Positions 11,893 through 46,397 of a DNA stretch of 56,916 nucleotides are shown here, one piece after another. Every line of letters begins with the position of its first letter. Positions within the stretch are counted from its first letter, which is position 1. Under the pieces are notes generated by a model, which saw only the letters and a list, made by a program, of their open reading frames with translations, did no database searches and had not been told where the DNA came from. The position numbers were made by a program, and so were the translations under genes. This DNA is from a virus. Lineage: Duplodnaviria > Caudoviricetes. The DNA lies in the IMG/VR virus record IMGVR_UViG_3300037458_001688, positions 1-56,916 of that record; one strand, given 5' to 3'.

Positions 11893-12250
11893 GACGGACC
11901 TCCTCGCAGGTGGGGGCGGGTCATTTCGTTGACGGCCCACCGTCGAAGCTCGAGCAACAGCGCGTCCTCCTGGCACGGAGGCACCCCCGGGAACGCCGGC
12001 GGCTCACCACCGCCGCGCCGGTCGCCGGCGTCCCCTCCCGTGTTCGCGGTCGTCGAGGCTGCGTCGAAGCGATCGCTCTGGGGCTGCTTCCGCCCGCCAC
12101 GGTTGTCTGGTCCGTGGTCGGGCCCCGTCACGCCGCAGCCGACGCGATCGACCGGTGAGCTGGGTCGACATGCTTGGAAGACGCCGCCCGAGGCACGCAG
12201 GGCAGCGCCGGGGATCACCGCGCCGTGCCACGCGGAGATGGAGTCGTGAG

Positions 12251-12517
12251 TCACCCGCGCTCCACCGGGGCCGATGCGCCCTCAACCGGCACTGGCGCTG
12301 GAACGATCGGGCATGCAAGTTCCTCGCATGGCCACAGCTCGTCCACCGACGTTTCGAGCGCAGCAGCGATGCGGCGGGCCAGCGGTAGCGTCGGGGCGTG
12401 CTCCCCGTCCTCCAACCGCTGCACGTGCGAAATGCTCATCTCGGCCAGCTCGGCGAGCTTCTGCTGCGTCAACCCCCGGGCTAGCCTGTGGTCGCGAATC
12501 AGTGATCGTTGTTCCAT
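12251..12517 (-). CDS. cro: Cro-like XRE HTH regulator
   Basis: RLARGLTQQKLAELAEMSISHVQRLEDGEHAPTL; divergent from cI. Confidence 0.85.
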   Translation of the reverse strand: MEQRSLIRDHRLARGLTQQKLAELAEMSISHVQRLEDGEHAPTLPLARRIAAALETSVDELWPCEELACPIVPAPVPVEGASAPVERG

Positions 12518-12524
12518 GAACGCG

Positions 12525-12553
12525 AATTTAACACCCCGCAAATGCGCTGTCAA
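12525..12553 (-). promoter_or_regulatory. sigma70-type early promoter for cro (leaderless)
   Basis: TTGACA-17 nt-TAAATT, with ATG 7 nt downstream. Confidence 0.75.
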
Positions 12554-12578
12554 GGGTGGGGCGACCACTTTCTCGCGG

Positions 12579-12607
12579 TTGACCTCGAATTCGCGTCAAG
12601 CGATCTT
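12579..12607 (+). promoter_or_regulatory. cI promoter (leaderless)
   Basis: TTGACC-17 nt-GATCTT, with GTG 7 nt downstream; inverted ACGCGAATT/AATTCGCGT candidate operators lie in both promoters. Confidence 0.5.
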
Positions 12608-12614
12608 CGGAGAG

Positions 12615-13271
12615 GTGACCATCGGCGAGGCCATTCGGGGGTGGAGAGAGGTCCGCGGGCTCAGCATCGAGGCCCTTGCGGACCGGGCTGGAATCGCGAA
12701 GACGTCCCTGCAGCGGTACGAGACGAACGCAAACTCCCCGACCTACCACCAGCTCGAGAAGATCGCCGGCAAGCTGGACCTGACGGTGGCGGAGCTCGTC
12801 TCCGGCCCGTCACCCGTGGTGCGGGAGCCGTCCTCTCCCTACCGCGCCGACATCGACCACCCGCGCCCAGTCCACACGGTGGCTGTACCCCTCTACGACG
12901 GCGTGCCGGCCGGAGGGTGGTCACCATCGGCGCCGGAGCGGGACGGCGAGCACGAGGTTCTCCACCACCTGGTGGGCGATCGCGACGGCGGACGGTACGT
13001 CGTCGTACGCGTCCGGGGCGACAGCATGTACCCGCGCCTCCTCGACGGGGACCTGGTCCTCGTCGACACCCACCAGCGCCGGCCGAAGAGCCAGCAGGTG
13101 GTGGTCGCCGTCTACCGGGGCGCCACGACGCTGAAGCGGTACATGGTCATCAACCGCAGGCCGGTGCTGATGCCATTCAACCCCGACTACCAGGCCCTCG
13201 AGATTGATGACCCCGAGGACTTGCGCATCATCGGGGTGGTAACCGATCTTGTACACAGGGCTGGCGTCTGA
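12615..13271 (+). CDS. cI: CI repressor, HTH plus S24 autopeptidase
   Basis: XRE HTH; VPAG cleavage site, VRGDSMYP serine motif and TLKR lysine motif. Confidence 0.92.
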   Translation: MTIGEAIRGWREVRGLSIEALADRAGIAKTSLQRYETNANSPTYHQLEKIAGKLDLTVAELVSGPSPVVREPSSPYRADIDHPRPVHTVAVPLYDGVPAGGWSPSAPERDGEHEVLHHLVGDRDGGRYVVVRVRGDSMYPRLLDGDLVLVDTHQRRPKSQQVVVAVYRGATTLKRYMVINRRPVLMPFNPDYQALEIDDPEDLRIIGVVTDLVHRAGV

Positions 13272-13288: not shown

Positions 13289-13582
13289 ATGAGCGACATC
13301 TACCTGTTGGGCCTGATCTGGATCTTGGGGCCGCTGGTCGGCATCGCCGCCGCTAACCACCAGGGCTTCGACCGTGTGAGCGGTGCGATTGGAGGGCTTC
13401 TGCTCGGGCCGGTGTTCGCCCTCGGGCTCTTCTGGGTGAGCCCGACGAAGCAGCGGTGCCCCCACTGCACCGAGTGGGTCCCGAAGGATGCACGTGTTTG
13501 CTCGCACTGCCAGCGCGACCTCCCGCAACCGCCCGCGCCACGCCAGATCGCCACCTCCTCCGCTGCCAGGCGCGGCCGGTGA
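13289..13582 (+). CDS. membrane protein with zinc ribbon (lysogenic-conversion-like)
   Basis: Two TM helices; CPHC...CSHC. Confidence 0.7.
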   Translation: MSDIYLLGLIWILGPLVGIAAANHQGFDRVSGAIGGLLLGPVFALGLFWVSPTKQRCPHCTEWVPKDARVCSHCQRDLPQPPAPRQIATSSAARRGR

Positions 13583-14115
13583 GCCCCACCCTCTCCGTCG
13601 GCCAGCTCTACCACCCAGAGCGCACGCGATGGCTGGAAGGCGTCGAGTACTCCTACGACCGCAACGGCCACACCCTGCTGCTGATCTGGTCCGGGCTCGA
13701 CCACCAGGTGGTGGAGGCGGTGCGGAAGGGCCGGGTAGACCTCGCCCTGTGGGCGCGCGGCGGGGTCGTGATCCTGCTCTACCGGATCGAGGGCGCCTGC
13801 GACTGGAGCGACGCCCCCTACTCCTGGCATATCGTGCCGCCGGAGCGCCGCCAGCTGCCGCCCATGCCGGCTGCGGAGGAGCGCGCCCTCCTGAGTGTCA
13901 TCCTGGTGGACGCGGACACGGGGCTGGTGCGCGTCCTGCGCGCGGTGACGATGGCGACGACGTTCACCCGCCGCCTCCACGGTGAGATCGCCGCCCAGGC
14001 ATCAGCGCAGTGGGACGCCGCCGCCTACGACGAGGAGCTACGCCTCCTCTACGCCTCGCACAGCACGGCCGCCCTCCTCGCCACCGCAGCCTCCACGTGC
14101 CGCGGTGGGGAGTAG
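13579..14115 (+). CDS. hypothetical protein
   Basis: GTGA coupling; globular-looking sequence. Confidence 0.6.
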   Translation: MSPTLSVGQLYHPERTRWLEGVEYSYDRNGHTLLLIWSGLDHQVVEAVRKGRVDLALWARGGVVILLYRIEGACDWSDAPYSWHIVPPERRQLPPMPAAEERALLSVILVDADTGLVRVLRAVTMATTFTRRLHGEIAAQASAQWDAAAYDEELRLLYASHSTAALLATAASTCRGGE

Positions 14116-14790
14116 CTCCATCCTCGGCATCTGGCACAACCGCTGGTTGCCAACCCACCAGGCCGGCGGGCGGATTCCCCAGGTCATCACCAGCAGACCT
14201 CCATGTGCGTCGTCCTGGCTCACCACCGGCAGTGGCCGACACTTGCACGCGGCAGCCCACCAGAGGTTGCGCATCCCCAACGGGGGCGCCGCGTCGACAT
14301 CCCAGCGCTGCACTACCCCGTACCCGTGCGCGCGCTTCTCCCCGATCGCCTGGACCAGGTCGAGCAGCTCGCGCACCCCGGCGGGATCTCCGATGAGGTA
14401 CCAGCTCACCGACGGGGTGACCCTGAGGATCCCCATGAGGCGGTAGCTCTTGTAGCGCCCGGAGGAGGCGTTGACCTTTCTCCGCTTGCCCGCGTCGAGG
14501 TGCTCCGCGTACTGGTCGTCAAACCGCTTGTGGTAGTGGATGACGTGCTTGTGGTCGAGCGCCGGCACCGGTGAGCTGCAGGCGTAGTACCAGTCGTCCC
14601 CCATGCCGAGCCGCTTCACCGGTAGCTCCGGCTCGATGGGCGGGCCGTCGATCACACCCACGTCCAGAACCTCTGGGCAGTCGCGCCGCAACATCGCCCA
14701 GGCGAGGATCCCGTCGAGCGCCGGCGTCCAATCGTCCGCTGCCACGTACCCGTTCACCAGGTGGGCCGTCACCCGCATCGGCGTGCTCAT
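14038..14790 (-). CDS. csf3: type IV CRISPR Cas5-like subunit Csf3
   Basis: MRVTAHL...LDGILAWA, WYYACS, HYHKRFD, SGRYKSYRL, Gly-rich IGEKRAHGYGVV. Confidence 0.85.
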   Translation of the reverse strand: MSTPMRVTAHLVNGYVAADDWTPALDGILAWAMLRRDCPEVLDVGVIDGPPIEPELPVKRLGMGDDWYYACSSPVPALDHKHVIHYHKRFDDQYAEHLDAGKRRKVNASSGRYKSYRLMGILRVTPSVSWYLIGDPAGVRELLDLVQAIGEKRAHGYGVVQRWDVDAAPPLGMRNLWWAAACKCRPLPVVSQDDAHGGLLVMTWGIRPPAWWVGNQRLCQMPRMELLPTAARGGCGGEEGGRAVRGVEEA

Positions 14791-15065
14791 CCCACACCTC
14801 CCGTCGCCCGGTCGCAGCCGAGCAGCACCGTCACCAGCTGAGGCAGGCGGCCGGGCCCCACCCGCTCCTGGACGTAGCACCGCAACCGCAGCGGCTTAGG
14901 CCCGCGGTAGAGCGCCAGACCTGTCGGCAGCGCCTTGACCCGGTGCGCCACCTCAGAGAGCCGCACCAGCTCCGCCAGGGCCACCTGATACTCGACTCCC
15001 GGCCGGCACCGGCGGCGGTACTGCTCGACCGCGTGCGGCGTCACGAACCACCGGCCCGGAATCAC
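14787..15065 (-). CDS. small RelE/DUF4258-like (BECR) RNase-fold protein
   Basis: FVTPHAVEQYRRR N-terminal helix and terminal LVTV strand; coupled to both cysH and csf3. Confidence 0.5.
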   Translation of the reverse strand: MIPGRWFVTPHAVEQYRRRCRPGVEYQVALAELVRLSEVAHRVKALPTGLALYRGPKPLRLRCYVQERVGPGRLPQLVTVLLGCDRATGGVG

Positions 15066-15883
15066 GCCGGCAACCTCTTCGCCTCTGGAATCGCCGCGAC
15101 CAGACGGGTGTAGAGGTCGGGGAAGTTGGCCTTGACCCATGCCAGCTCTCCATGCCGGTGGTGGTCTGTCGACGCCCACCAGCTGAGCCGGATCCGCCCG
15201 CGGTGCTCGAGGTGGAGCAAGGGCGCCGAGTAGATTGGGTGGAGCGGCAGCCGGTGCGTCGCGACGTAGGCGAAAACGTCCCGCCAGCTCCAGTCCGCCA
15301 GCGGCTGGCAGACCAGCATCCCGTCGCCCCGCTGGTAGACGAGGCCGTGGGTGGCCCGCGACACAGCCCGCCCGCTGCTCTCCTCTGACCGTAGGCCCAG
15401 CGCCACCCCGTCGAAGGGCAGCGTCCTGGGTTCGGGCGGAAAGGAGAGGAAGCGCCGGATCGGCCGGAACAGCGCCAGGTCGTCCTTCCGCTCCGCCGTG
15501 ATCTGCCCCAGCAGCTGACGGCGCTTGAGCGCGACCACATCCTCCTCGGGCCTCACCACGTGGAGCCTCTCGACCAGGCCCGCAGCCTGCAGCCGCTCGA
15601 ACACCTCGGCAGTTCCCGGCCACTCGACCCCGCTGTCGTGCCACATCACCTCGACGAGCTCGTTCCCACCCCGCGCCCGGATCCGCCGCGCCACCTCCTG
15701 CACCAGGTGAAGCATCGCCACCGAGTCCTTGCCCCCGGAGCAGGCGACGTAGGGGCGGGCGCACCGCCCGAGCCATGCCTCCGCGGCCGCCTGCGCCTTC
15801 GCCACCGCCCGCAGGTGCGCGGCCAGCCGGGCGTGGACAAGGTCCTCCTCGCGGTAGTCGTCCCAGCGCAAGGTCGCGTTCAA
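15062..15883 (-). CDS. cysH: type IV-B-associated CysH-like (PAPS reductase family) protein
   Basis: PP-loop ACSGGKDS, DSGVEWP, GLRSEESSGR, PLADWSWRDVFAY. Confidence 0.85.
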   Translation of the reverse strand: MNATLRWDDYREEDLVHARLAAHLRAVAKAQAAAEAWLGRCARPYVACSGGKDSVAMLHLVQEVARRIRARGGNELVEVMWHDSGVEWPGTAEVFERLQAAGLVERLHVVRPEEDVVALKRRQLLGQITAERKDDLALFRPIRRFLSFPPEPRTLPFDGVALGLRSEESSGRAVSRATHGLVYQRGDGMLVCQPLADWSWRDVFAYVATHRLPLHPIYSAPLLHLEHRGRIRLSWWASTDHHRHGELAWVKANFPDLYTRLVAAIPEAKRLPA

Positions 15884-16461
15884 CTCCCTCCCCCACGGCC
15901 TATACCCTCAAACGTCAATGACCGACGGTACCTCGAGCGCCGCCTGTCGATCAGGCTCACCCCAAAGCGATGGTCTGCTAGGTTCGGTACCTCGAGCCAG
16001 TATCGGCATCGCCGGCTCTTGAGGTAGTCGGCAACGAGGAGGTCGCAGCCGGTTGGATGCTCTGCGATTCTGGGCCACGACCGAGACAGGTCGAGCACGC
16101 CCATGGAAAATCCGGGTGGCAGGTAGAAACAGACCGCTGCGAGGAATGTCGATCCAGGCGCGAACCTGGATCCTATTGTGAGATCGGCTGAGCGCATGGA
16201 GAAGAGCTGGATTGGCATGCCCCTCGCACGGTCAAGTACACCGGTGAATCGCCGCTGGAAGTGCTCGCACAGGAGTGCATCGTCCTCGATGTGCAGTGCA
16301 GCGGCGTCGCCGGCGGCTTCCATGGCTCGCCGGAAGGTGGTCATCGCGTTGCGGTCTTGATCCCAGATCACCTCCGCCTGTGGCAGCTGGGCCAGGATCT
16401 CGCGGACCCACTCGGAGCGCTCACGGCAGGCGCGAACGAGGACTCTCAGAGGAGTTTCCAC
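15880..16461 (-). CDS. GT-A-fold glycosyltransferase-like protein
   Basis: LHIEDDA (EDD motif) and PNLADH, as seen in phage glycosyltransferases. Confidence 0.6.
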   Translation of the reverse strand: METPLRVLVRACRERSEWVREILAQLPQAEVIWDQDRNAMTTFRRAMEAAGDAAALHIEDDALLCEHFQRRFTGVLDRARGMPIQLFSMRSADLTIGSRFAPGSTFLAAVCFYLPPGFSMGVLDLSRSWPRIAEHPTGCDLLVADYLKSRRCRYWLEVPNLADHRFGVSLIDRRRSRYRRSLTFEGIGRGGGS

Positions 16462-17498
16462 CACACCTCCCGGAGACGGTCGCGCTTGGCGTAGAGGCGT
16501 GGCAGGCGCCCCTCCCAATCATTGATCAGGAGCTGCTTGACCTGCCAGCGACACGTGAGCTCGTCGTCGCCTTGCTTGGCAAAGCGCCGCGCGAACCGCT
16601 GCAGCTTCTCGGTGGGCGTGGTCTGGAGCATGTGGTCCCGGTACTCTCGCCAGGATCCAAACCGGCTTGGGAGGACGTCGGCGGAGTACAGCGACCGCTC
16701 CGCGCCGTAGAGTGCTGCGGCGTGAACCCCTCCGAGGCGCCGGACCAGACGGTCGTAGGTCTCAGGTTCAAACTCTTGGAGGCTAGTGAGGCACCGGAAG
16801 GCGTGCTCGTGGATGAGGTTCGAGACGCGCATGGAGGAGATGTTTTGTCCGGACCTCGCAAACATCAGGTCGTATAGCCTGTTGTAACGCACACCCGAGT
16901 CCGCAATGAACTTCCAGACGTCTCGAAAGTGCCAGTCGTAGATCGGGTAGAAGCGATAGCTACCGGGTGAGCGGCAGGCGGTCGACCATGCATAGTGCTC
17001 GTAGCCGTTGGCCTTGCGCGTTGCCCGGTGACGATTCAGGCTTTCGAACTGCCGCAGCCCGACCAGGTGCGCGGTGGGCACCTCGTCCTGTGCCTCGAAC
17101 CAGGCGAAGAAGTCGTAGAACCGCTGAGGGTATGGCCCGTCAACTGAGTGAATCGAGACCTCACTCTTGGGTCTCACCCACTCCTCCCCATCGCCCCAGG
17201 CACGCAGAAACAGGTCGCGGTGGCTCGTGGCGTTCGTCATGTCGATCGGCACCTGGTACCACCGCGGGATGACCAGAGGGTGCCGCATCATTTCTTCCAT
17301 CAGGTCGACCGTCGATTGGTACTCTGCTTCCTGGTCGAGAAAGAACGCCTCCATCCTTCGCCCGCAGCGCTCAGCCTCTCGCAGCGCCAGATGATAGAGG
17401 CAGGTGGAGTCCTTCCCTCCCGAAATGCTGATGACGATGCGCTCGAAACGCGAGAATATGAATGCCACTCGTCGGACGGCAGCCTCGTAGACGTTCAT
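16446..17498 (-). CDS. ibrA: IbrA-like PAPS reductase/DUF3440 family protein
   Basis: NVYEAAVRR, SISGGKDS, FLDQEAEY, GLRQFESLNR, YPIYDW...DVW, YNRLYDLM, MRVS. Confidence 0.85.
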   Translation of the reverse strand: MNVYEAAVRRVAFIFSRFERIVISISGGKDSTCLYHLALREAERCGRRMEAFFLDQEAEYQSTVDLMEEMMRHPLVIPRWYQVPIDMTNATSHRDLFLRAWGDGEEWVRPKSEVSIHSVDGPYPQRFYDFFAWFEAQDEVPTAHLVGLRQFESLNRHRATRKANGYEHYAWSTACRSPGSYRFYPIYDWHFRDVWKFIADSGVRYNRLYDLMFARSGQNISSMRVSNLIHEHAFRCLTSLQEFEPETYDRLVRRLGGVHAAALYGAERSLYSADVLPSRFGSWREYRDHMLQTTPTEKLQRFARRFAKQGDDELTCRWQVKQLLINDWEGRLPRLYAKRDRLREVWWKLL

Positions 17499-18274
17499 CG
17501 GCGCGCCTGAAAGTGTTCGGCGATGAAGTTGGTGAGGTCGATGCGCTCCCTGATGCCCCGCGTCAAAAACTGGTCTACCCCAAGGTCGGTCGCTACGACG
17601 TGAACCGACCTGGACTTGAAGAGGTCGCGGGTGCTGGGAACGGACCGCTCCGGGAGTGCCTCGTCGGCAAAGCGCGCTAGCCGGGAGATGATCTTGGTGG
17701 CCGTCGTCTCCTGCGCGAAAGCGGCCGCCTTCTCCGCCTGATAGCGTGCGTGATCGTCCGGATCTACCTGCACGACCCGAATCGTCACCGTCTCGAAGTG
17801 GAAGGGGCGCTCCGCAATGACCACGCCGTCACCGTACCGCACGATCTCCTCTGGGGTGCAAGGGTTCGGTCCGGCGCCCTCGACGTAGCGGTTCCACCGG
17901 CCCTCGAGCGCGTAGCTCACGTCGTGCCCGCCGAACCACACTCCCACACAGCCAAAGTGCCACCAGAGTCGCCAAGGATCCGCGGTGAACAGCCGGTCGT
18001 CAATCGAGATCCGTTCCACCCCAGGCAGGGGATCTGTGAGCAGCTTCCCCGTCCGCACCCGATTTCCTGGCGTCGTGATCTCGGAGACCAGTCCGACCAC
18101 GACCATCGTCCTGATACCTCGCATGAGCTCACCCGGCCGGTCGAGTAGCTCGGTGACGGTCACACACCGCGAAGCCAGAGGGCGTCGGCCACGGTTGCCG
18201 TACACCCACAGGGCCACCTCGCCACGGGGCGCGTCGACGGCGTCAAGATTGGTGGTGAGGTGGATCCGGCTCAT
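17495..18274 (-). CDS. hypothetical protein between ibrB and ibrA
   Basis: Coupled ORF of about 260 aa. Confidence 0.65.
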   Translation of the reverse strand: MSRIHLTTNLDAVDAPRGEVALWVYGNRGRRPLASRCVTVTELLDRPGELMRGIRTMVVVGLVSEITTPGNRVRTGKLLTDPLPGVERISIDDRLFTADPWRLWWHFGCVGVWFGGHDVSYALEGRWNRYVEGAGPNPCTPEEIVRYGDGVVIAERPFHFETVTIRVVQVDPDDHARYQAEKAAAFAQETTATKIISRLARFADEALPERSVPSTRDLFKSRSVHVVATDLGVDQFLTRGIRERIDLTNFIAEHFQARR

Positions 18275-18893
18275 CACTCCTCCCGTAGGATTCTGAGTAG
18301 GTCTCCGCCGCTAGCAGCCGGGCGGCACCCACGATCTGCTTGAGTCGCAGAAGCTCCTCTGGCGACATGCCGAGCGCAGTCCCCATCCGCTCGTCATCCC
18401 ATCCTAGCTCGACCATGTCCCTGACGAGGGCCGCCATCAGCTCCACCTGATGTTTCCCGCGGGCACGGTTGTGCCGCACCGTCGAGGCCATGCGGTCGGC
18501 CAGGTCGCGGGTGATCTCGGTGCACGGCAGGTACGCGCAGCCGAGGCGCCCAGCCGCGACCTCCCGGCGGTGGAACCCGTCGACCACCACCCACCGCCCC
18601 CGCGCTCGGTCTGGCATGACGACGATCGCCATCGTGATACCGTCGGCCCGGATTGACTCCTCGAGCAGGTCGAGCTCTACCGACGCAACTCGGTTCGGGT
18701 TGTAGTCGTTGCCGACCACAGCCTCCGCGGGGATCAGTTGGGGGCGGAGCGCGGGGTCCTTGGAGATGTCGGCAACCATCTCGGCGAGGGTCCGGACCGC
18801 GGTGTTGTAAATTCCGATCCGCTCCCGCTCGGGGTAGTCGGAGCACGATTCGACCACGTTGTGGATCACCCACGTTGGGTTGGGCTCGCTCAC
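18243..18893 (-). CDS. ibrB: IbrB-like ParB/Srx domain protein
   Basis: NDYNPNRVA..ELDLLEESIRADG, VVDGFHR, RMASTVRHNRARGKH. Confidence 0.88.
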   Translation of the reverse strand: MSEPNPTWVIHNVVESCSDYPERERIGIYNTAVRTLAEMVADISKDPALRPQLIPAEAVVGNDYNPNRVASVELDLLEESIRADGITMAIVVMPDRARGRWVVVDGFHRREVAAGRLGCAYLPCTEITRDLADRMASTVRHNRARGKHQVELMAALVRDMVELGWDDERMGTALGMSPEELLRLKQIVGAARLLAAETYSESYGRSDEPDPPHHQS

Positions 18894-18997
18894 CGCTGGT
18901 CCTCCACGTAGCCGTGCCGAAGCAGCCGGCGGATCGCGTACTCGAGGTGTTGGACGAGCCCGCTCTGATGCCGGAAGACGCGGAAGGTGGGGCTCAC
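18890..18997 (-). CDS. 35-aa coupled ORF
   Basis: GTGA overlaps with both csf2 and ibrB. Confidence 0.35.
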   Translation of the reverse strand: MSPTFRVFRHQSGLVQHLEYAIRRLLRHGYVEDQR

Positions 18998-19857
18998 GTG
19001 ACCTCCCCGGTCAACACCTGGCGGATCTCGTCGGCGTGGCCTTCGACGTGCGCCATGTAGGCGTCCGCTGCGGCACGGGCCGACTCGGCCAGCAGCCTCC
19101 TGCCGTCGATCGGCTCCGTCGAGTACCACCCGTCGTACCAGAGGTGTGCGTGGCCGTGGCCCTTGCTCGCCTGCCCGCCGATGAATGGCCGCTGAGCGAA
19201 CCGCGCCAGCGCGACCGCAAGCGCCCCCATCTCGAGGTCAGACGCCCGGTCGAGCAGCAGGTAAGTGTAGAGCCGAGCCCCGGCAGCGAGCAGCTCCACG
19301 GTGTACCGCATCTGCTGCGTGTCGGTCCCCCGCTCCCCGTCGAGGTGGTCCGCCCGGTGCGCATGCTTGCGGTCGTCAGTCCGGGTGAAGCTCTTCTCTG
19401 TGGTCAGTAGCCGGTACTCCTGCAGCTCCTCGGGGTGGAACTGTACCGGCACCAGGTGGGCGGTCTCCCGGCAGATCGGGTAGCTGTTGCCCACGATCAG
19501 CCGCCCGGGCAGCATCTGGTTGCCAACGCCACCACCGAGCAAGGACACCGCCGGCAACAGCTCCCGGATCCGGCGAGCCTGTGCGAGGTCGACGCTCACC
19601 GAGTCGCCAATCGAGCCCCCGGAGAAAAGCAGGTGGAAGGCCGGCAGCGGCAGCCGGATGCCGAGCCGCTCGCACAGGTCCATCGCGAGCAGGTCCCGCA
19701 GCTGCCCCCGCCATGCGTTGCCGTTGTAGACGAAGACCGACTCCACCCGGCCGGACGGCTGTACCACCGGCTCCTCGTTCAGGTAGCTGTCAGTCGAGAT
19801 GCTCTCCCCGATGTGGGACAGGGGGGAGAGCAACGTGAACGTGCCCTCGAGCCTCAC
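18994..19857 (-). CDS. csf2: type IV CRISPR Cas7-like backbone Csf2
   Basis: TLLSPLSHIG, NGNAWRGQLRD, LFSGG, SLLGG, FTRTDD, QMRYTVELL, Gly-loop IGGQASKGHG. Confidence 0.9.
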   Translation of the reverse strand: MRLEGTFTLLSPLSHIGESISTDSYLNEEPVVQPSGRVESVFVYNGNAWRGQLRDLLAMDLCERLGIRLPLPAFHLLFSGGSIGDSVSVDLAQARRIRELLPAVSLLGGGVGNQMLPGRLIVGNSYPICRETAHLVPVQFHPEELQEYRLLTTEKSFTRTDDRKHAHRADHLDGERGTDTQQMRYTVELLAAGARLYTYLLLDRASDLEMGALAVALARFAQRPFIGGQASKGHGHAHLWYDGWYSTEPIDGRRLLAESARAAADAYMAHVEGHADEIRQVLTGEVT

Positions 19858-20273
19858 GCCGCACCTCCGTTGTTAACCGCCTTCTCCCGCTCCAGTCGCT
19901 CCCGCTCCAGTCGCTCCCGTACCAGCGCCACCACGAGCCCGGTCTCCCGGTGGAGGCGTCGGAGGATCTCACCGGCGAGCACCGGCTCCCGCTCCCCCAG
20001 CACGCCGACGAGGAACTGCCGGCTGTCTCCGCTGCTCCCCTCCAGGTCGCAGTGCTGGGGCTTCAGCGTCCTGCACTCAACCCGCCGCTTCAGCCGGTCG
20101 ACGAACTCCGCCGGCGAGCATGCCCTCTTCGCCGCCGACCTGGTCCACCGCTCGACCTGCGCCCAGATGTCGGGCGTGATCTTGAGCTTGCCCGGCTCCC
20201 GGCTGCACCACGTCACGTACACCAGTGCCGCGGCCGCAGCGGCCGGCCCGTCGTCAGTCGCAAACCCCAGCAT
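19854..20273 (-). CDS. cas11: type IV-B small subunit, Cas11 (Csf4)
   Basis: 139-aa helical protein between csf1 and csf2; RSAAKRA...EFVDRL and VVALVRERLE. Confidence 0.65.
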   Translation of the reverse strand: MLGFATDDGPAAAAAALVYVTWCSREPGKLKITPDIWAQVERWTRSAAKRACSPAEFVDRLKRRVECRTLKPQHCDLEGSSGDSRQFLVGVLGEREPVLAGEILRRLHRETGLVVALVRERLERERLEREKAVNNGGAA

Positions 20274-21003
20274 CCCTCCCCCTTTCCGGCCCGTGGGCCA
20301 CTCGCAGCGCCAGCTCCAGATGTAGCGGCCGCAGCCGTCGCGCCTCGATGATCCTCCGCTCGAGCGCCGCGTACCGCTCGAGGCCGAAGGAGAGCACACG
20401 CCGGCTGTTGACACGGCCCGAGCGCAGCTCCTCGCGCCGGAACCCCGCCGCCAGCAGCGTCTCGATCGTGCCGAGCAGCTCCCGGAGGACCTCCCTCTCC
20501 ACCATCACCTGCTCCTCCTCGTACTGGAGGGGAAACACCTCGCGACCACGCGCGACCGTCCCCCGGAAGATGAGGTGCTTCTGCCCGCTCGTGGGCAGGC
20601 AGAGGAGGAACGGCGGCTCCGGTGGGTCGAGCAGTATCCCGCGCCACTCCGCCCGGCTGGGGTGGCAGAGGTGGGGCGGGCTGACCGTGAACACGTGCCC
20701 CTGGTTGCGCCAGTAGTGGCGGGCCTCTGGGTGGCTCATCAAGAAGACCGCGCAGGGCAGGCAGAGCCACTCCGACCGCGGCGCCTTCGCCCAGCCGTGG
20801 TTGGTGAAGCCCTCGTTCAGCCGCAGCCGGCGGGGTATCATCTCATGGTGGGTCCACCCGCACAGCCAGCACATCTCCCAGAAAGGGGACGCCTGAACTT
20901 GGTCGAGCAGCTCCGCGTAGTGCAGGTGCTGCCGCCACCCCGGGCACGCACGCTCCCAGCAGGAGAACGCGAAGTGGGTCGGGCTCGCAGTCAGGCAGTG
21001 CAA
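20254..21003 (-). CDS. csf1: type IV large subunit Csf1 (Cas8-like)
   Basis: TTG after GGAGG; CWLCG...FTN...LCLPC zinc finger; LLDPPEPPF and SGQKH. Confidence 0.82.
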   Translation of the reverse strand: MHCLTASPTHFAFSCWERACPGWRQHLHYAELLDQVQASPFWEMCWLCGWTHHEMIPRRLRLNEGFTNHGWAKAPRSEWLCLPCAVFLMSHPEARHYWRNQGHVFTVSPPHLCHPSRAEWRGILLDPPEPPFLLCLPTSGQKHLIFRGTVARGREVFPLQYEEEQVMVEREVLRELLGTIETLLAAGFRREELRSGRVNSRRVLSFGLERYAALERRIIEARRLRPLHLELALRVAHGPERGRDAGVCD

Positions 21004-21218
21004 GATCGCCTCCGGAACACCCGGGGCGGGCGCCCGACCCCGGAGGCCTTGCAGTCGCTCTCGAGGGCATCCTCGGCCTCGAGCGCGCGGAGGATGCGCC
21101 ACGCCTGGCTACGGTCGATCCCGAGGGCTGCGGCCAGCTGCACCGGCGTGACACCGCCGTCTCGCCCCGCCATCTCGAGTGCCTTGAGCATGTCTGAGGG
21201 CTTCATGGCAACCATCAT
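20991..21218 (-). CDS. winged-HTH regulator heading the type IV operon
   Basis: VTPVQLAAALGIDRSQAWRILRALE...GRP; preceded by TTGTTT-17 nt-CATACT. Confidence 0.7.
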   Translation of the reverse strand: MMVAMKPSDMLKALEMAGRDGGVTPVQLAAALGIDRSQAWRILRALEAEDALESDCKASGVGRPPRVFRRRSCTA

Positions 21219-21334
21219 AGGGAGTATGGTGCCTGCCGCGCAACCAAACAAGGGCCGATTGTGAGCTACGTCACCGTTCGGGCCCTTTATATATTGACCT
21301 ACGCGCACTATATTACACACAGGAGGATGCGACG

Positions 21335-21553
21335 ATGACAGCAGCAGAGCTTAGGACGGCCGCGGAGGATGTGGTGAGAGAAGAGATCGACGCTCGTGGA
21401 GCGCGGCGGGCGGCCTGTGGGGTGAGCTTCACCGCCGACGTCGCCGTGCTCCTCGGTGACGTACAGGCCGATGTGACCTACAACGCCGCCGCGTGGCTCG
21501 AGGGTCGCCTTGAGGCCGATGCGATGGCCTACCCGGTCGTGGAGATCGCCTGA
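21335..21553 (+). CDS. hypothetical protein
   Basis: AGGAGG RBS after an AT-rich promoter-like region. Confidence 0.55.
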   Translation: MTAAELRTAAEDVVREEIDARGARRAACGVSFTADVAVLLGDVQADVTYNAAAWLEGRLEADAMAYPVVEIA

Positions 21554-21903: not shown

Positions 21904-22077
21904 CGACCACCCGCCGGATGACCGCGGCCGGGAACGGCCTCCCGAGCATCGGCGAAGAGGTCATCATCGAGGGCAAGGTGCTCCTGCGAGCGGGCGCAGC
22001 GGGAGAGGCAGAGAGGAGAGATGACGACGGCAAATCGGCCCTTGTCTGAAGGTCTCGTCGGCTCCACACTTGGAGCC

Positions 22078-23370
22078 ATGGCCAAGAAGCGAGCGCCGGG
22101 CGAAGGGTCGATCCACCAGCGGAGGGACGGCCGGTGGGAGGCCTCGCGCACCGTCGGCCGCACCAAGGGCGGCAACCCCCGCCGGGTCCGCGCCTACGGC
22201 CGAACCAAGGGCGAGGCGATCGCCAAGCTGGACAAGGCCCTCACCGAGCTCGGCGGCGTGGTGGGAGCCGGCATTGCAGTGGACCCCGGCACCCTCACCG
22301 TGGCCGGCCTGCTCGAGCGGTGGCTCCGGATGAAGGCCGGTGTCGGCGGGCTGAAGGAGACCACCATCACCAGCTACCGGTGGTACCTCAACCACTACGT
22401 CGTGCCGGCGATCGGCGCCGTCCCCCTGCGCCGCCTGCGGTCGACCCACGTCCAGGAGCTGCTCTCGAACCTCGCCGCCGGCATCCGGCCGGAGCCCCCC
22501 GACCAGGTCGATGGGGAGGAGTCACCGGCGAAGGAGACGGCCCCGCTCTCCCCCCGGGTCATCCGGTACGTCTGGACCCTCCTCAACGGCGCGTGCCGTC
22601 ACGCGGTCCGGCTCGAGCTGCTGCGCTCGAACCCGTGCGACCAGGTCAGCCCGCCCCGAGGTGGGCGCACCAAGGTCCCGCAGTCGTGGACCCCGGACGA
22701 GGTGGAGCGTCTCCTCGCGGCAGCCGCGGCCACGTCGCCCGCCCTGCGCCCGCTCTACTACCTGGCCGTCACCACCGGCTTGCGCCGCGGCGAGCTGCTC
22801 GCCCTGCGGTGGGAGGACCTCGACCTGGTCGAGGGCCTGGTGACGGTGCGCAGCTCCCGGGACGCCGCCGGCGTCACTACCACCCCGAAGACGGCCGCGG
22901 GCGTGCGGCAGGTCCCGATCTCCACCGATGCGGTGACCGTGCTCGAGGACCACCTCCAGGCGCAGCACGAGCGGCGCGAGCTCGCCATCGAGGCGGGGCT
23001 CTGGCAGGAGACCGGGTACGTGTTCACCACCTCCACCGGCCGCCCGGTCGCCGCCCGCAACCTCCTCCACAATCTCGAGCGCCTCTGCCGCCGGGCTGCG
23101 ATCCGCCGTCTCCCCTTCCACGCCCTACGTCACACCGCGGCCACCCTGGCCCTGCGCAGCGGCGTCCCCATCCGCGACCTGGCGGACCGCCTCGGCCACC
23201 GCCACGCCGCCTTCACCCTGAACGTCTACACCCACGTCCTGCAGGAGTCCGCCCGCGCCGCGGCCCTCACGCTCGAGGAGCTGCTGCAGGGCAAGAAAGC
23301 GGAGCCGGCCGAGCTCAAGGCCGAGCATCAGGATGGACAGGCGGCTCCCACAGAAGGGCAGGTCAACTGA
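22078..23370 (+). CDS. int: tyrosine integrase
   Basis: GEGSIHQRRDGRW arm-binding domain; TGLRRGEL, TPKT, FHALRHT, RLGH, and catalytic Tyr in NVYTH. Confidence 0.95.
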   Translation: MAKKRAPGEGSIHQRRDGRWEASRTVGRTKGGNPRRVRAYGRTKGEAIAKLDKALTELGGVVGAGIAVDPGTLTVAGLLERWLRMKAGVGGLKETTITSYRWYLNHYVVPAIGAVPLRRLRSTHVQELLSNLAAGIRPEPPDQVDGEESPAKETAPLSPRVIRYVWTLLNGACRHAVRLELLRSNPCDQVSPPRGGRTKVPQSWTPDEVERLLAAAAATSPALRPLYYLAVTTGLRRGELLALRWEDLDLVEGLVTVRSSRDAAGVTTTPKTAAGVRQVPISTDAVTVLEDHLQAQHERRELAIEAGLWQETGYVFTTSTGRPVAARNLLHNLERLCRRAAIRRLPFHALRHTAATLALRSGVPIRDLADRLGHRHAAFTLNVYTHVLQESARAAALTLEELLQGKKAEPAELKAEHQDGQAAPTEGQVN

Positions 23371-24851: not shown

Positions 24852-24896
24852 GTCAGTGCTGGTCAGTGCTGGTCAGTGCTGGTCAGTGCTGGTCAG
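24852..24896. repeat. 10-bp tandem repeat (gtcagtgctg) x4.5
   Basis: Directly visible in the sequence. Confidence 0.9.
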
Positions 24897-25157
24897 GAGG
24901 GTCCAGACCTCGACTGTGTAGCGGTCCACCAGCTCGGTCAGGCGGGCCTGCCAGTCGAGGCCGTGGCCCGGGTGCCCCACGTGGGCAATCTCGTGGAGGA
25001 CAATACCCGGCCCCGCGTCGAGGGGGAGGACGATCTCCTGGTGAGGGTAGTTGCAGCACCCCTGCCCGCGGACAACGCCCTGAACGACGACGTGCCAGCC
25101 GTCGAGGCCCTCGGCCGCCAGAATCTCCCGGGCCCACTCAGCCAGGTGGTGGCTCAT
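24873..25157 (-). CDS. small HExxH zincin-like protein
   Basis: IVLHEIAH...GHGLDW. Confidence 0.6.
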   Translation of the reverse strand: MSHHLAEWAREILAAEGLDGWHVVVQGVVRGQGCCNYPHQEIVLPLDAGPGIVLHEIAHVGHPGHGLDWQARLTELVDRYTVEVWTLLTSTDQH

Positions 25158-25494
25158 CGGTCTGCACCCGGTCGCCGGGGATGGCCTGGTACAGCTCCCA
25201 GAGCTGCAACCCCCAGGCCCTCCAGCTCTCCCATGCCCGCTCGATGGTGAGGATCACGTCCGCCTCGGTGGCGTCCTCGGGGATCACCGGGTCGGCTGGC
25301 TGGGCCGGCGCCGGCGGTACCTGGCAGGGGCGCGTCAGCGGTACGGGGTAGGGCTGGTACTCGGTGCGGACAATCGGCTCGCAGCTGCCGCAGCCGTAGA
25401 GGGAGAGCAGCACGGCGGCCAGGAACAGAACGGCGGCGAGGCCCAACGCAATCCGCACGTCGACCAGGTCCTCGGGTGGGATGTCACGGCGCAT
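25138..25494 (-). CDS. o-spanin (Rz1)-like lipoprotein
   Basis: Lipobox LSLYGC, Pro-rich; follows the Rz-like gene. Confidence 0.6.
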   Translation of the reverse strand: MRRDIPPEDLVDVRIALGLAAVLFLAAVLLSLYGCGSCEPIVRTEYQPYPVPLTRPCQVPPAPAQPADPVIPEDATEADVILTIERAWESWRAWGLQLWELYQAIPGDRVQTDEPPPG

Positions 25495-46290: not shown

Positions 46291-46397
46291 CTCGTCCTCC
46301 CGTGCTCAGCGGCACTCGTTGACCCGTGAGTGAAGCCCGGCCAGGGGGTCACGGGATACCCCTCTTCGCATGCCTGCTAGGCCGGGCGAGTGGATGG

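What the first reader, a model, noticed from the sequence alone, without database searches (positions are those of the whole stretch)
14038..21218. Array-less type IV-B CRISPR-Cas operon on a phage, expanded to 12 coupled genes with two PAPS-reductase-family enzymes
Seen: wHTH, csf1, cas11, csf2, a 35-aa ORF, ibrB, a hypothetical gene, ibrA, a glycosyltransferase, cysH, an RNase-like gene and csf3. All are on the minus strand with overlapping stop and start codons. No cas1, cas2, cas6, dinG or CRISPR array was seen anywhere in the window. Known: type IV-B loci lack arrays, carry a cysH-like gene and have no established function. Unusual: a second PP-loop enzyme with its ParB partner and a glycosyltransferase sit in the middle of the effector operon. 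Inference: a Cascade-like complex coupled to nucleic-acid or nucleotide modification chemistry, or an anti-defence complex that sequesters host crRNAs.
Basis: partly seen in the sequence, partly recalled or inferred. Interest (0 to 1): 0.85.

Follow-up and report, generated by a model that had tools for sequence, protein, structure and literature searches.

The report
Phage type IV-B CRISPR operon with IbrAB cassette
A temperate phage carries an array-less type IV-B CRISPR-Cas operon into which a four-gene ParB/PP-loop enzyme/glycosyltransferase cassette has been spliced, and the same pairing turns up repeatedly in other mobile elements, which gives a new handle on what type IV-B systems do.

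Summary
Twelve minus-strand genes (21218-14038) overlap by 4-35 nt. Profile searches confirm Csf1, Cas11, Csf2, Csf3, a CasCysH, an IbrA-type PAPS-reductase+DUF3440 enzyme and a ParB-like IbrB. The "glycosyltransferase" folds as GT-A. The "RNase-like" label is not supported. The record is a temperate-phage contig (82% complete) with no array, cas1, cas2, cas6e or dinG. The operon lies between a CI-type repressor and the integrase.

New here: ibrB-hyp260-ibrA-GT is an inserted cassette (63.9% vs 70.1% GC) but not a one-off. IbrAB modules sit beside or inside type IV-B loci in eight other loci, in different gene orders, scattered over both the Csf2 and IbrA trees. All belong to one IbrA subclade that carries a third, uncharacterised component (hyp260/Y1Z0). 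The pairing is a minority variant: 4 of 60 Csf2-seeded loci, 0 of 80 mostly short metagenome loci. CasCysH aligns with IbrA beyond the PAPS-reductase domain. Both keep the PP-loop and lack a conserved cysteine.

Best reading: a Csf ribonucleoprotein coupled to adenylation-based nucleic-acid modification. This is inferred, not shown. It is a new variant of a known kind.

The parts
21219..21334 (.). Divergent intergenic region upstream of the operon. It holds an AT-rich patch in a 69% GC genome and is the likely promoter/operator. A + strand ORF with an AGGAGG site starts at 21335.
   Evidence: Sequence read. One sigma-70-like match on the + strand at 21286-21314 (1 found against 0.6 expected, so weak).
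20991..21218 (-). Winged-HTH regulator, 75 aa, first gene of the operon.
   Evidence: Pfam HTH_IclR 3.5e-6 and HTH_24 6.7e-6.
20254..21003 (-). csf1 (type IV large subunit), 249 aa from TTG 21003. Two CxxC pairs are visible.
   Evidence: PADLOC Csf1_0_IV 3.2e-27; TIGR03114 1.6e-13, below cut-off; start choice; sequence.
19854..20273 (-). cas11 (type IV small subunit), 139 aa.
   Evidence: PADLOC Cas11_2_IV 8.2e-22. No PDB sequence match at E<=0.1.
18994..19857 (-). csf2 (Cas7 backbone), 287 aa.
   Evidence: PADLOC Csf2_0_IV 5.9e-65. PDB 7JHY IV-B Csf2 3.8e-26, against IV-C 1.1e-7 and IV-A about 3e-5. 531 relatives at E<=1e-10.
18890..18997 (-). 35-aa ORF bridging csf2 and the cassette. GTG start with GGGGAGG upstream, 4-nt overlaps at both ends, GC3 0.89 like the csf genes.
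   Evidence: No homologue in L001-L140. Coding status unproven.
18243..18893 (-). ibrB: ParB-like N-terminal domain protein, 216 aa. First gene of the inserted cassette.
   Evidence: PHROG 2159 2.7e-50; Pfam ParB_N 2.2e-4, below the gathering score. An IbrB lies next to IbrA in 78 of 80 IbrA-seeded loci.
17495..18277 (-). hyp260: uncharacterised third component, directly upstream of ibrA. Probably the same family as 'Y1Z0'.
   Evidence: No Pfam, PHROG or PADLOC hit. AF2 pLDDT 69.7. Weak SF2/Snf2-lobe Foldseek hits, E 7e-4, TM 0.38-0.45. hhalign to Y1Z0: 86% probability, E 5e-6, 220 columns. 111 representatives among 1.84 billion proteins.
16446..17498 (-). ibrA: PP-loop PAPS-reductase-family enzyme with a DUF3440 C-terminal domain, 350 aa.
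   Evidence: Pfam PAPS_reduct 2.5e-17 and DUF3440 1.2e-9; PHROG 2302 2.9e-89. The SGGKDS PP-loop is kept in 84 of 84 family members, and no Cys column reaches 90%.
15880..16464 (-). GT-A fold glycosyltransferase-like protein, 194 aa. Last gene of the cassette.
   Evidence: AF2 pLDDT 91.4. Foldseek PDB: mimivirus R655 8.4e-6, POMGnT1, GnT-I, LH3, COLGALT1. PHROG 854 8e-7. E60 is nearly invariant and D62 invariant in 12 homologues. The family is found in 14 of 80 IbrA loci.
15062..15883 (-). CasCysH: the IV-B signature PAPS-reductase-family PP-loop enzyme, 273 aa. No Cys after residue 202.
   Evidence: Pfam PAPS_reduct 4.9e-17. PP-loop kept in 45 of 47 CasCysH sequences with no conserved Cys. 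Profile-profile match to IbrA: 99.9% probability, E 5e-33, 239 columns.
14787..15065 (-). N-terminal F-[VI]-T-P-H-A motif.
   Evidence: The family HMM hits 27 further ORFs among the loci fetched, 25 distinct loci. Alignment A7. No Pfam or PDB assignment.
14038..14790 (-). csf3 (Cas5), 250 aa. Its last ~26 codons overlap a convergent + strand ORF ending at 14115.
   Evidence: PADLOC Csf3_0_IV 1.2e-41; TIGR03116 1.8e-14, below cut-off.
12174..13271 (+). Context: CI/LexA-type repressor (HTH_3 plus Peptidase_S24). It bounds the lysogeny module on one side.
   Evidence: Pfam Peptidase_S24 4.6e-20, HTH_3 1.1e-9.
22021..23370 (+). Context: tyrosine integrase. It bounds the lysogeny module on the other side.
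   Evidence: PHROG 1 integrase 6.9e-79.

Best explanation
SHOWN. This is a genuine array-less type IV-B effector operon: wHTH, Csf1, Cas11, Csf2, CasCysH, a conserved small protein and Csf3. It lies in the lysogeny module of a temperate phage, between a CI-type repressor and the integrase. A four-gene cassette has been spliced into it between csf2 and cysH: IbrB (ParB-like), hyp260, IbrA (PP-loop enzyme plus DUF3440) and a GT-A glycosyltransferase. The cassette comes from a widespread phage IbrA-IbrB module and is compositionally foreign. The IV-B/IbrAB pairing has nevertheless arisen repeatedly and is confined to the three-component IbrAB subclade. CasCysH is itself a shorter paralogue of IbrA.

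INFERRED. The two modules work together. The Csf ribonucleoprotein supplies nucleic-acid binding, either RNA-guided or sequence-independent. IbrB acts as an NTP-dependent DNA clamp or loader that brings IbrA to DNA. The cysteine-less PP-loop enzymes (CasCysH, IbrA) activate a nucleic-acid substrate by adenylation rather than by sulphur chemistry. A transferase then completes a covalent mark: GT-A here, methylase-like proteins in other loci. The likely payoff is marking or shielding of the element's own DNA, or silencing of competitors, during lysogeny or early infection.
For: Identity: PADLOC Csf1/Cas11/Csf2/Csf3 at 3e-27 to 6e-65. Csf2 is closest to the solved IV-B Csf2, 7JHY (the PDB code is confirmed in passages of PMC7937560). 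Pfam and PHROG assignments for IbrA, IbrB and CasCysH. GT-A fold.

Operon structure: overlapping starts and stops throughout.

Insertion: the cassette is 63.9% GC (GC3 0.71-0.83), against 70.1% (GC3 0.84-0.91) for the csf/cysH genes.

Recurrence: IbrA plus IbrB are present in 4 of 60 Csf2-seeded loci, L001, L020, L022 and L054. Csf genes are present in 4 of 80 IbrA-seeded loci, L064, L074, L084 and L085.

Interleaving: the IbrAB block lies between csf genes, or between csf genes and cysH, in the window, L054, L074 and L084; in L064 it lies between csf2 and cysH, with the csf3 hit weak.

Independence: the IbrAB label needs 7 changes on a 58-row Csf2 tree, at least 5 of them forced by supported branches. 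The IV-B label needs 8 changes on an 84-row IbrA tree.

Specificity: all 9 IV-B-linked IbrAs fall in one 33-row clade with 100% SH-aLRT support. None of the other 51 rows is linked. 4 of 20 IbrA-seeded loci with hyp260/Y1Z0 carry csf genes against 0 of 60 without it, Fisher p 0.003.

Background: IbrA occurs in 167 of 50,697 phage records. With that rate, 4 of 60 has p about 5e-5 (rough).

L022 has IbrAB and no cysH hit.

Chemistry: CasCysH and IbrA profiles align at E 5e-33 over 239 columns. The alignment runs past the Pfam PAPS_reduct boundary. The PP-loop is kept in 84/84 and 45/47 sequences, and no Cys column reaches 90% in either family.
Against: The pairing is rare. 0 of 80 metagenome Csf2 loci had IbrA; only 25 of these are 8 kb or longer, and 9 duplicate earlier loci. 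76 of 80 IbrA loci lack csf genes and 56 of 60 Csf2 loci lack IbrAB, so each module clearly works alone.

The cassette's lower GC shows a recent arrival. In L001 and L085 the two modules are on opposite strands. Accessory genes of temperate phages pile up in the same hotspots, which could inflate co-occurrence. My background rate comes from a different collection.

Four of the nine linked loci were found by seeding with IbrA, so the tree counts are not from an unbiased sample. The trees are quick searches without bootstraps, and the Csf2 rows of L064, L084 and L085 are long branches.

No expression, interaction or modification data exist. hyp260 has no assigned function. No outgroup was used, so 'CasCysH is closer to IbrA than to metabolic CysH' is only suggested.
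Confidence: 0.55

Rival explanations
1. Two self-sufficient accessory modules share a hotspot and a promoter, with no mechanistic link. IbrAB-hyp260-GT would be a stand-alone phage DNA-modification or anti-restriction module that landed inside a IV-B operon. The recurrence would reflect common insertion sites in lysogeny or anti-defence islands.
For: 76 of 80 IbrA loci have no csf genes. 56 of 60 Csf2 loci, and 80 of 80 metagenome loci, have no IbrAB. The cassette has foreign GC. L001 and L085 have the modules on opposite strands. The operon lies between the repressor and the integrase, a typical accessory-gene site.
Against: In at least four architectures the IbrAB block is interleaved with csf genes and cysH rather than appended. 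Starts and stops overlap across the junctions. The link is confined to one IbrA subclade. One IV-B-like locus has IbrA and no cysH.
Confidence: 0.3
2. A composite counter-defence operon. The Csf complex soaks up host guide RNAs (anti-CRISPR by sequestration), while IbrAB-GT separately modifies phage DNA against restriction. The two act in parallel against different host defences.
For: The solved IV-B complex assembled on heterogeneous RNA rather than crRNA (PMC7937560, passages seen). The sponge idea is discussed in PMC7038947 and PMC8175902 (passages and section 7 seen). PMC13551039 cites a phage PAPS reductase as aiding evasion of Dnd defence (passage only; the cited paper was not seen).
Against: It does not explain why CasCysH is nearly always kept with IV-B, a point made in PMC8175902 section 7. 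It does not explain why IbrAB is embedded between csf genes. The host and its CRISPR content are unknown. Nothing here tests RNA binding.
Confidence: 0.1
3. A prophage-borne defence or inter-element competition system. Expressed from the lysogen, the operon would mark resident DNA and exclude or silence incoming phages and plasmids, as a modification-based immunity analogous to Dnd or BREX type 4.
For: Position in the lysogeny module, transcribed opposite to the repressor and integrase and diverging from the integrase-side genes. Weak PADLOC similarity of CasCysH to BrxP (3e-9) and of IbrA to DndC (1.1e-6). Type IV systems are linked to inter-plasmid conflict in PMC7038947 (passages).
Against: No restriction or effector nuclease partner was identified in the operon. 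No conserved Cys for phosphorothioation chemistry. The timing of expression is unknown.
Confidence: 0.05

Closest known systems
Type IV-B CRISPR-Cas (Csf1-Cas11-Csf2-Csf3 with cysH-like gene), e.g. Mycobacterium sp. JS623 plasmid system, PDB 7JHY
   Same: All four effector genes and a cysteine-less PP-loop CasCysH are present. There is no array, adaptation genes, Cas6e or DinG. It sits on a mobile element. Csf2 matches 7JHY at 3.8e-26.
   Different: A four-gene IbrB/hyp260/IbrA/GT cassette and a 35-aa ORF are spliced between csf2 and cysH. The gene order is csf2...cysH-RNL-csf3. It lies in a phage lysogeny module. The NCBIfam equivalog cut-offs are not reached.
IbrA-IbrB pairs (PAPS-reductase+DUF3440 enzyme with a ParB-like partner) of phages and prophages. 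The name comes from the E. coli immunoglobulin-binding regulators (recalled, not tested).
   Same: Same two-domain IbrA architecture with an adjacent ParB-like gene. PHROG 2302 and 2159 hits at 3e-89 and 3e-50. Homologues occur in 167 phage records, including Flavobacterium, Mycobacterium and Streptococcus phages.
   Different: Here it belongs to a subclade with a third component (hyp260/Y1Z0) and is embedded in a CRISPR-Cas effector operon. Orthology to the E. coli proteins was not tested. No function is established for the family.
DndB-DndC / SspD / BREX type 4 BrxP DNA phosphorothioation enzymes
   Same: PAPS-reductase-family PP-loop enzyme working with, or fused to, a ParB-like protein on DNA. 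Weak PADLOC similarity: DndC 1.1e-6, BrxP 3e-9.
   Different: No conserved cysteine in 84 IbrA or 47 CasCysH sequences, so sulphur transfer is unlikely. A methylase-like or GT-A transferase accompanies the pair instead.
ParB-dependent phage DNA-hypermodification enzymes (ParB-dependent T-dioxygenases, PMC13229309; listing and abstract only)
   Same: A ParB-like partner is needed by a DNA-modifying enzyme in phages, and glycosyltransferases often follow in such pathways.
   Different: The catalytic enzyme is different (PP-loop, not a dioxygenase). The parallel is by analogy only.

Membership tests
Type IV-B CRISPR-Cas | Csf1, Csf2 (Cas7) and Csf3 (Cas5) effector genes | tested here: met
   PADLOC 3.2e-27, 5.9e-65 and 1.2e-41. 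NCBIfam hits are about 1e-13, below the equivalog cut-offs.
Type IV-B CRISPR-Cas | Cas11-like small subunit | tested here: met
   PADLOC Cas11_2_IV 8.2e-22. No PDB sequence hit.
Type IV-B CRISPR-Cas | Csf2 groups with IV-B rather than IV-A or IV-C | tested here: met
   7JHY (IV-B) 3.8e-26, against Cas7c 1.1e-7 and IV-A Csf2 about 3e-5. No tree with reference subtypes was built.
Type IV-B CRISPR-Cas | Adjacent cysH-like gene with a PP-loop and no catalytic C-terminal cysteine (criterion from PMC8175902 section 7) | tested here: met
   PAPS_reduct 4.9e-17. SGGKDS is present and there is no Cys after residue 202 (sequence). Family-wide result.
Type IV-B CRISPR-Cas | No CRISPR array, Cas6, DinG/RecD helicase or Cas1-Cas2 | tested here: met
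   This is limited to a record estimated 82% complete. Csf5 and other Cas6 profiles were not searched.
Type IV-B CRISPR-Cas | Forms an RNA-containing Csf2/Cas11 filament | not testable with these tools
IbrA/IbrB module | PAPS_reduct plus DUF3440 architecture | tested here: met
   Pfam 2.5e-17 and 1.2e-9.
IbrA/IbrB module | Adjacent ParB-like partner | tested here: met
   PHROG 2159 2.7e-50. Adjacent in 78 of 80 IbrA loci. Pfam ParB_N scores below its gathering cut-off.
IbrA/IbrB module | Orthology to E. coli IbrA/IbrB | not tested
   No protein search of E. coli genomes is offered. The name rests on the architecture and on recall.
GT-A glycosyltransferase | GT-A Rossmann-like fold | tested here: met
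   pLDDT 91.4. Foldseek E 8e-6 to 1e-3 against many GT-A enzymes, TM 0.5-0.6. Nucleotidyltransferases of the same fold also appear lower in the list.
GT-A glycosyltransferase | Acidic DxD-type metal/nucleotide-sugar motif | tested here: met
   An E-D-D motif at residues 60-62. E60 is nearly invariant and D62 invariant in 12 sequences.
GT-A glycosyltransferase | Sugar donor and acceptor (DNA base, protein or lipid) | not testable with these tools
   Needs biochemistry.
DndC/SspD-type phosphorothioation enzyme | Conserved catalytic or cluster-binding cysteines | tested here: not met
   No column with Cys in 90% or more of 84 IbrA or 47 CasCysH sequences.
   Pfam: DUF4258 at E 0.16 in 1 of 14 members. 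PDB profile search: nothing meaningful.

The most novel reading that the evidence does not exclude
Type IV-B Csf complexes are targeting platforms for a PP-loop-driven covalent nucleic-acid modification pathway. CasCysH would be a pared-down IbrA. The IbrAB-linked loci would keep the full pathway: a ParB-type clamp, an adenylating enzyme, an unknown third subunit, and a glycosyl- or methyl-transferase. This would make them the first CRISPR-Cas effectors whose output is a chemical mark on DNA rather than cleavage, signalling or transcriptional blockade.
Probability: 0.2. Interest if true: 0.9.

Novelty: new variant of a known kind. Interest (0 to 1): 0.62.

Why it matters
Type IV-B is the one widespread CRISPR-Cas subtype with no known function. 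Reviews point to the CysH-like gene as the key (PMC8175902 section 7; PMC7038947 and PMC7937560 passages). A 2026 paper still calls the function unclear (PMC13676074 introduction).

Two findings narrow the hypothesis space to adenylation-based nucleic-acid modification. First, CasCysH is a close paralogue of phage IbrA. Second, whole IbrA-IbrB-transferase modules have been recruited into IV-B operons several times.

This also suggests concrete experiments: search for operon-dependent DNA marks and test for co-purification. In addition, it gives a first functional context to the widespread but unexplained IbrAB genes of phages, and defines two small families that travel with these systems (hyp260/Y1Z0 and the 92-aa protein).

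Tried and rejected
Near-identity DNA searches of the operon found nothing in phages or plasmids. A single-protein scan of viral contigs with Csf2 confirmed no relative; the alignment-based scan worked.

hyp260 stays unassigned:
- Pfam, NCBIfam, PADLOC and PHROGs gave nothing.
- The Atlas gave no usable hit.
- The AF2 model is mediocre and its Foldseek hits to SF2/Snf2 lobes are weak, so I do not call it a helicase.
- The Y1Z0 profile found nothing in the PDB or Pfam.
- The 1.84-billion-protein search found 111 mostly single-domain relatives and no fusion that reveals a function.

The 'RNase-like' idea has no support. GT and the methylase-like family are unrelated by hhalign.

No CRISPR-like repeats lie within about 10 kb in eight linked loci.

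Sequencing runs: no RNA holder was listed, so nothing can be said on expression. Laid contigs showed no trustworthy variant lacking the cassette. The listed joints have sides of only 20-24 letters at 85% likeness, and I disregard them.

The metagenome scan found no further IbrAB-linked locus.

Literature. 'ParB' has 0 occurrences in the main texts of PMC8175902, PMC7038947, the Shmakov preprint 10.1101/270033, the Bathyarchaeia virus preprint and PMC12669027. 'IbrA', 'CRISPR' linkage and 'type IV' are absent from PMC10853773. Searches listed no paper linking IbrAB or DUF3440 to type IV systems. Supplementary Data S1 of PMC7038947 and the Shmakov tables may list such neighbours, so 'not in print' holds only for searchable main texts.

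Full report
WHAT THE RECORD IS. The window is the whole record held: 56,916 bases in one contig. It is an IMG/VR virus record classed as linear, with a CheckV completeness estimate of 82%, and about 69% G+C. It encodes a large terminase, portal, major head protein, DnaB-type helicase and a tyrosine integrase, plus a CI/LexA-type repressor with HTH_3 and Peptidase_S24 domains at 12174-13271 on the + strand. The nearest terminases in 50,697 phage records are only about 34% identical, from phages of Burkholderia, Marinobacter and Brucella. The operon has no near-identical DNA in the phage or plasmid collections. It is therefore a novel temperate phage of unknown host. Logan contigs of three wetland-metagenome runs reproduce the region with no differences, and both cassette junctions are covered in each. 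These runs may be the source samples, so this shows only that the arrangement is not an artefact of a single assembly.

THE OBSERVATION. Twelve minus-strand ORFs run from 21218 to 14038. Each start overlaps the preceding stop by 4-35 nt, and most have a GGAGG-like site upstream. PADLOC profiles identify Csf1 (3.2e-27), Cas11 (8.2e-22), Csf2 (5.9e-65) and Csf3 (1.2e-41). The NCBIfam equivalogs match at about 1e-13, below their cut-offs. Against solved structures, Csf2 matches the type IV-B Csf2 of 7JHY at 3.8e-26, against 1.1e-7 for a IV-C Cas7 and about 3e-5 for IV-A Csf2. The 7JHY code is given in PMC7937560 (passages).

Two genes carry the PAPS_reduct domain. 'ibrA' scores 2.5e-17 and also has DUF3440 at 1.2e-9. 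'cysH' scores 4.9e-17. 'ibrB' is ParB-like: PHROG 2159 at 2.7e-50, with Pfam ParB_N only 2.2e-4 and below the gathering score.

The 'glycosyltransferase' has no Pfam hit. An AF2 model built on 12 homologues has pLDDT 91.4. It matches GT-A enzymes: mimivirus R655 at 8.4e-6, then POMGnT1, GnT-I, LH3 and COLGALT1, with TM 0.5-0.6. It has an E-D-D motif, with E60 nearly invariant and D62 invariant, and PHROG 854 'glucosyltransferase' scores 8e-7.

The 260-aa 'hypothetical' and the 35-aa ORF have no family. The 92-aa 'RNase-like' gene has no detectable RNase similarity.

The record holds no CRISPR-like repeats, no tRNA, and no Cas1, Cas2, Cas6e or DinG-type helicase domain. Csf5 and other Cas6 profiles were not searched. 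The caveat is that 18% of the phage may be missing.

POSITION. The operon lies between the repressor and the integrase, transcribed opposite to both. An AT-rich divergent intergenic region at 21219-21334 separates its first gene, a winged-HTH regulator, from + strand ORFs that lead towards the integrase. This is the classic site for accessory genes of temperate phages. Whether the operon is expressed in lysogens is unknown, because no RNA run was listed.

THE CASSETTE IS AN INSERTION. ibrB, hyp260, ibrA and GT together are 63.9% G+C, with GC3 of 0.71-0.83. The csf genes, cysH, the small ORFs and the wHTH gene are 70.1%, with GC3 of 0.84-0.91. The four genes therefore arrived as a block from a donor of lower G+C, into an operon that read csf1-cas11-csf2-(35 aa)-cysH-RNL-csf3.

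THE CASSETTE IS NOT A ONE-OFF. Csf2 has many relatives: 531 at E<=1e-10 among the candidates scored. With an alignment of 36 of them I fetched 46 viral-contig loci and 11 genome loci. I added three annotated records: a Rhodovastum plasmid, Skermania phage SPI1 and a Rhodococcus plasmid. IbrA together with IbrB is present in 4 of these 60 loci:
- L001, the plasmid with the closest named Csf2 (46%). IbrB, a GNAT and a DUF3440 protein lie 1.4 kb downstream on the other strand.
- L020: csf1-RNL-cas11-csf2-csf3-cysH-ibrB-two methylase-like genes-hyp260-ibrA.
- L022: Y1Z0-ibrA-ibrB-methylase-like-csf1-cas11-csf2-Cas6e-like-csf3, with no cysH hit.
- L054: csf1-Y1Z0-ibrA-ibrB-methylase-like-cysH-cas11-csf2-RNL-csf3.

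Four of these 80 carry csf genes:
- L064: csf2...GT-ibrB-hyp260-ibrA-cysH.
- L074: csf1-cas11-csf2-csf3-Y1Z0-ibrA-ibrB-methylase-like-cysH.
- L084: csf2-cysH-methylase-like-Y1Z0-ibrA-ibrB-csf3.
- L085: the modules are convergent.

That makes nine loci including the window, each with a different gene order. In at least four of them the IbrAB block lies between csf genes, or between csf genes and cysH. None has a CRISPR-like repeat within about 10 kb.

HOW OFTEN, AND HOW INDEPENDENT. The variant is rare. A second Csf2-seeded sample of 80 metagenome loci had none, although only 25 are 8 kb or longer and 9 duplicate earlier loci. IbrA occurs in 167 of 50,697 phage records. At that rate, 4 of 60 has a binomial p of about 5e-5, and 4 of 131 about 1e-3. 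The background comes from a different collection, so these figures are rough.

On a 58-row Csf2 tree (64 sequences; six identical rows and one short row dropped), the nine IbrAB-linked rows need 7 gains or losses, at least 5 of them forced by well-supported branches. They are no more clustered than shuffled labels: mean 8.6, with 37 of 500 shuffles as low. On an 84-row IbrA tree the IV-B label needs 8 changes, yet all nine linked IbrAs fall inside one 33-row clade with 100% SH-aLRT support. None of the other 51 rows is linked. The window's IbrA is sister to that of L020 (59% identity), while their Csf2 proteins sit in different parts of the Csf2 tree. The modules have therefore been re-paired.

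Caveats: four linked loci entered through the IbrA seed. The trees are quick searches without bootstraps. Three Csf2 rows are long branches.

THE IBRAB MODULE ITSELF. In the 80 IbrA-seeded loci, the following were found at E<=1e-4:
- IbrB next to IbrA in 78;
- a small family with weak N6_N4_Mtase similarity (best 4.8e-5, below cut-off) in 32, many of them weak hits;
- the GT family in 14;
- Y1Z0 in 13;
- hyp260 in 7.

hyp260 and Y1Z0 occupy the same slot directly upstream of ibrA and are probably one family (hhalign 86% probability, E 5e-6, 220 columns). Csf genes occur in 4 of the 20 loci with this third component and in 0 of the 60 without it (Fisher p 0.003). The hyp260 profile finds only 111 representatives among 1.84 billion proteins, nearly all single-domain and 250-290 aa long. 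Its AF2 model (pLDDT 69.7) gives only weak matches to SF2/Snf2 ATPase lobes. I leave its function open.

CASCYSH AND IBRA ARE PARALOGUES. Profiles of 47 CasCysH and 84 IbrA sequences align at 99.9% probability, E 5e-33, over 239 columns. The alignment runs about 50 residues past the Pfam PAPS_reduct boundary into the start of IbrA's DUF3440 region. Both families keep the SGGKDS PP-loop (45 of 47 and 84 of 84) and an R-x-x-E-x-x-x-R motif. Neither has a column with cysteine in 90% of sequences. This matches the published view that CasCysH is an ATP alpha-hydrolase or AMPylating enzyme rather than a reductase or phosphorothioation enzyme (PMC8175902, section 7 read), and extends it to IbrA. I had no outgroup, so 'closer to IbrA than to metabolic CysH' is suggested but not shown. 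In support, PHROG 2302 at 1.7e-26 is CasCysH's best phage family.

MECHANISM. What is shown:
- identities, operon structure, insertion and recurrence;
- restriction of the link to one IbrA subclade;
- paralogy of the two PP-loop enzymes;
- absence of conserved cysteines.

What is inferred: the Csf ribonucleoprotein provides nucleic-acid binding. IbrB works as an NTP-dependent DNA clamp that brings IbrA to DNA; ParB-fold proteins bind varied NTPs and partner with DNA-modifying domains (PMC12704722 passages; PMC13229309 abstract only). The PP-loop enzymes adenylate a nucleic-acid substrate, and the GT-A or methylase-like enzyme completes a covalent mark. I give the functional coupling about 0.55 and this specific chemistry about 0.2.

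The main rival is that two independent accessory modules share a hotspot and a promoter (0.3). It is favoured by the rarity of the pairing, the foreign composition of the cassette and the two loci with opposite orientation. It is disfavoured by the interleaved architectures and the subclade specificity. The guide-RNA sponge idea and a prophage-defence role remain possible and untested.

COMPARISON WITH WHAT IS KNOWN. Type IV-B on plasmids, prophages and some phages, array-less and tied to cysH, is established (PMC7038947, PMC8175902 and 10.1101/270033 passages; Bathyarchaeia virus preprint passages). Its function was still described as unclear in 2026 (PMC13676074 introduction). I found no mention of ParB, IbrA/IbrB or DUF3440 with type IV systems in the main texts read, or in seven full-text searches. 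Supplements could not be opened. The finding is therefore a new variant of a known kind, not a new kind of system.

VERDICT. Observation confirmed; interpretation partly supported. Interest is 0.62. The phage-borne IV-B locus itself is ordinary. The repeated capture of a full ParB/PP-loop/transferase module, and the IbrA-CasCysH kinship, give a long-standing open question a testable direction.

Noticed in passing
window 14787-15065 (-); also L054:6140-6445, L020:9173-9511, L056:10972-11292, L194:9599-9928 and others: The 92-aa protein belongs to a conserved family of about 90-125 aa small proteins found in 25 of the other loci fetched, mostly Csf2-seeded, at variable positions (before csf3, before csf1, or between csf1 and cas11). 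It has an invariant F..H-A and P..T signature. It looks like an unrecognised accessory gene of type IV-B and has no known family.
   Followed up: partly
L022:10972-11556 (+): An IV-B-like locus with cas11 has a Cas6e-type gene (Pfam CRISPR_assoc 2.1e-9) between csf2 and csf3. It has IbrA-IbrB upstream, no cysH hit and no repeat array within about 10 kb. A flagellin gene follows, so it may be chromosomal.
   Followed up: partly
window 17495-18277 (-); L054:837-1799, L022:5282-6277 and 18 IbrA-seeded loci: hyp260 and 'Y1Z0' form a small family (111 representatives among 1.84 billion proteins) that always lies directly upstream of ibrA in one IbrA subclade. Its function is unknown.
   Followed up: partly
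window 46323-46387 (-): Rfam int-alpA RNA match (46.4 bits, E 1.7e-6) in the head-gene region, far from the integrase.
   Followed up: no
window 24852-24896: A perfect 10-nt tandem repeat, GTCAGTGCTG x 4.5, at the edge of a minus-strand ORF (24873-25253).
   Followed up: no
window 13289-13582 (+): A 97-aa ORF just after the repressor gene. It has two hydrophobic stretches followed by CPHC...CSHC, so it is a small membrane protein with a zinc-ribbon-like tail. A superinfection-exclusion-type gene is possible.
   Followed up: no
window 14038-14115: The last ~26 codons of csf3 overlap the end of a convergent + strand ORF (13456-14115, GC3 0.83) with no family hit.
   Followed up: no
L002 (Skermania phage SPI1, KR011061.1: 33743-36242): This is the only record of 50,697 phage records with a Csf2 match (32.5%). 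Csf2, Csf3 and a cysH-like gene are all annotated as hypothetical proteins, so this isolated phage carries an unannotated type IV-B-like locus.
   Followed up: partly
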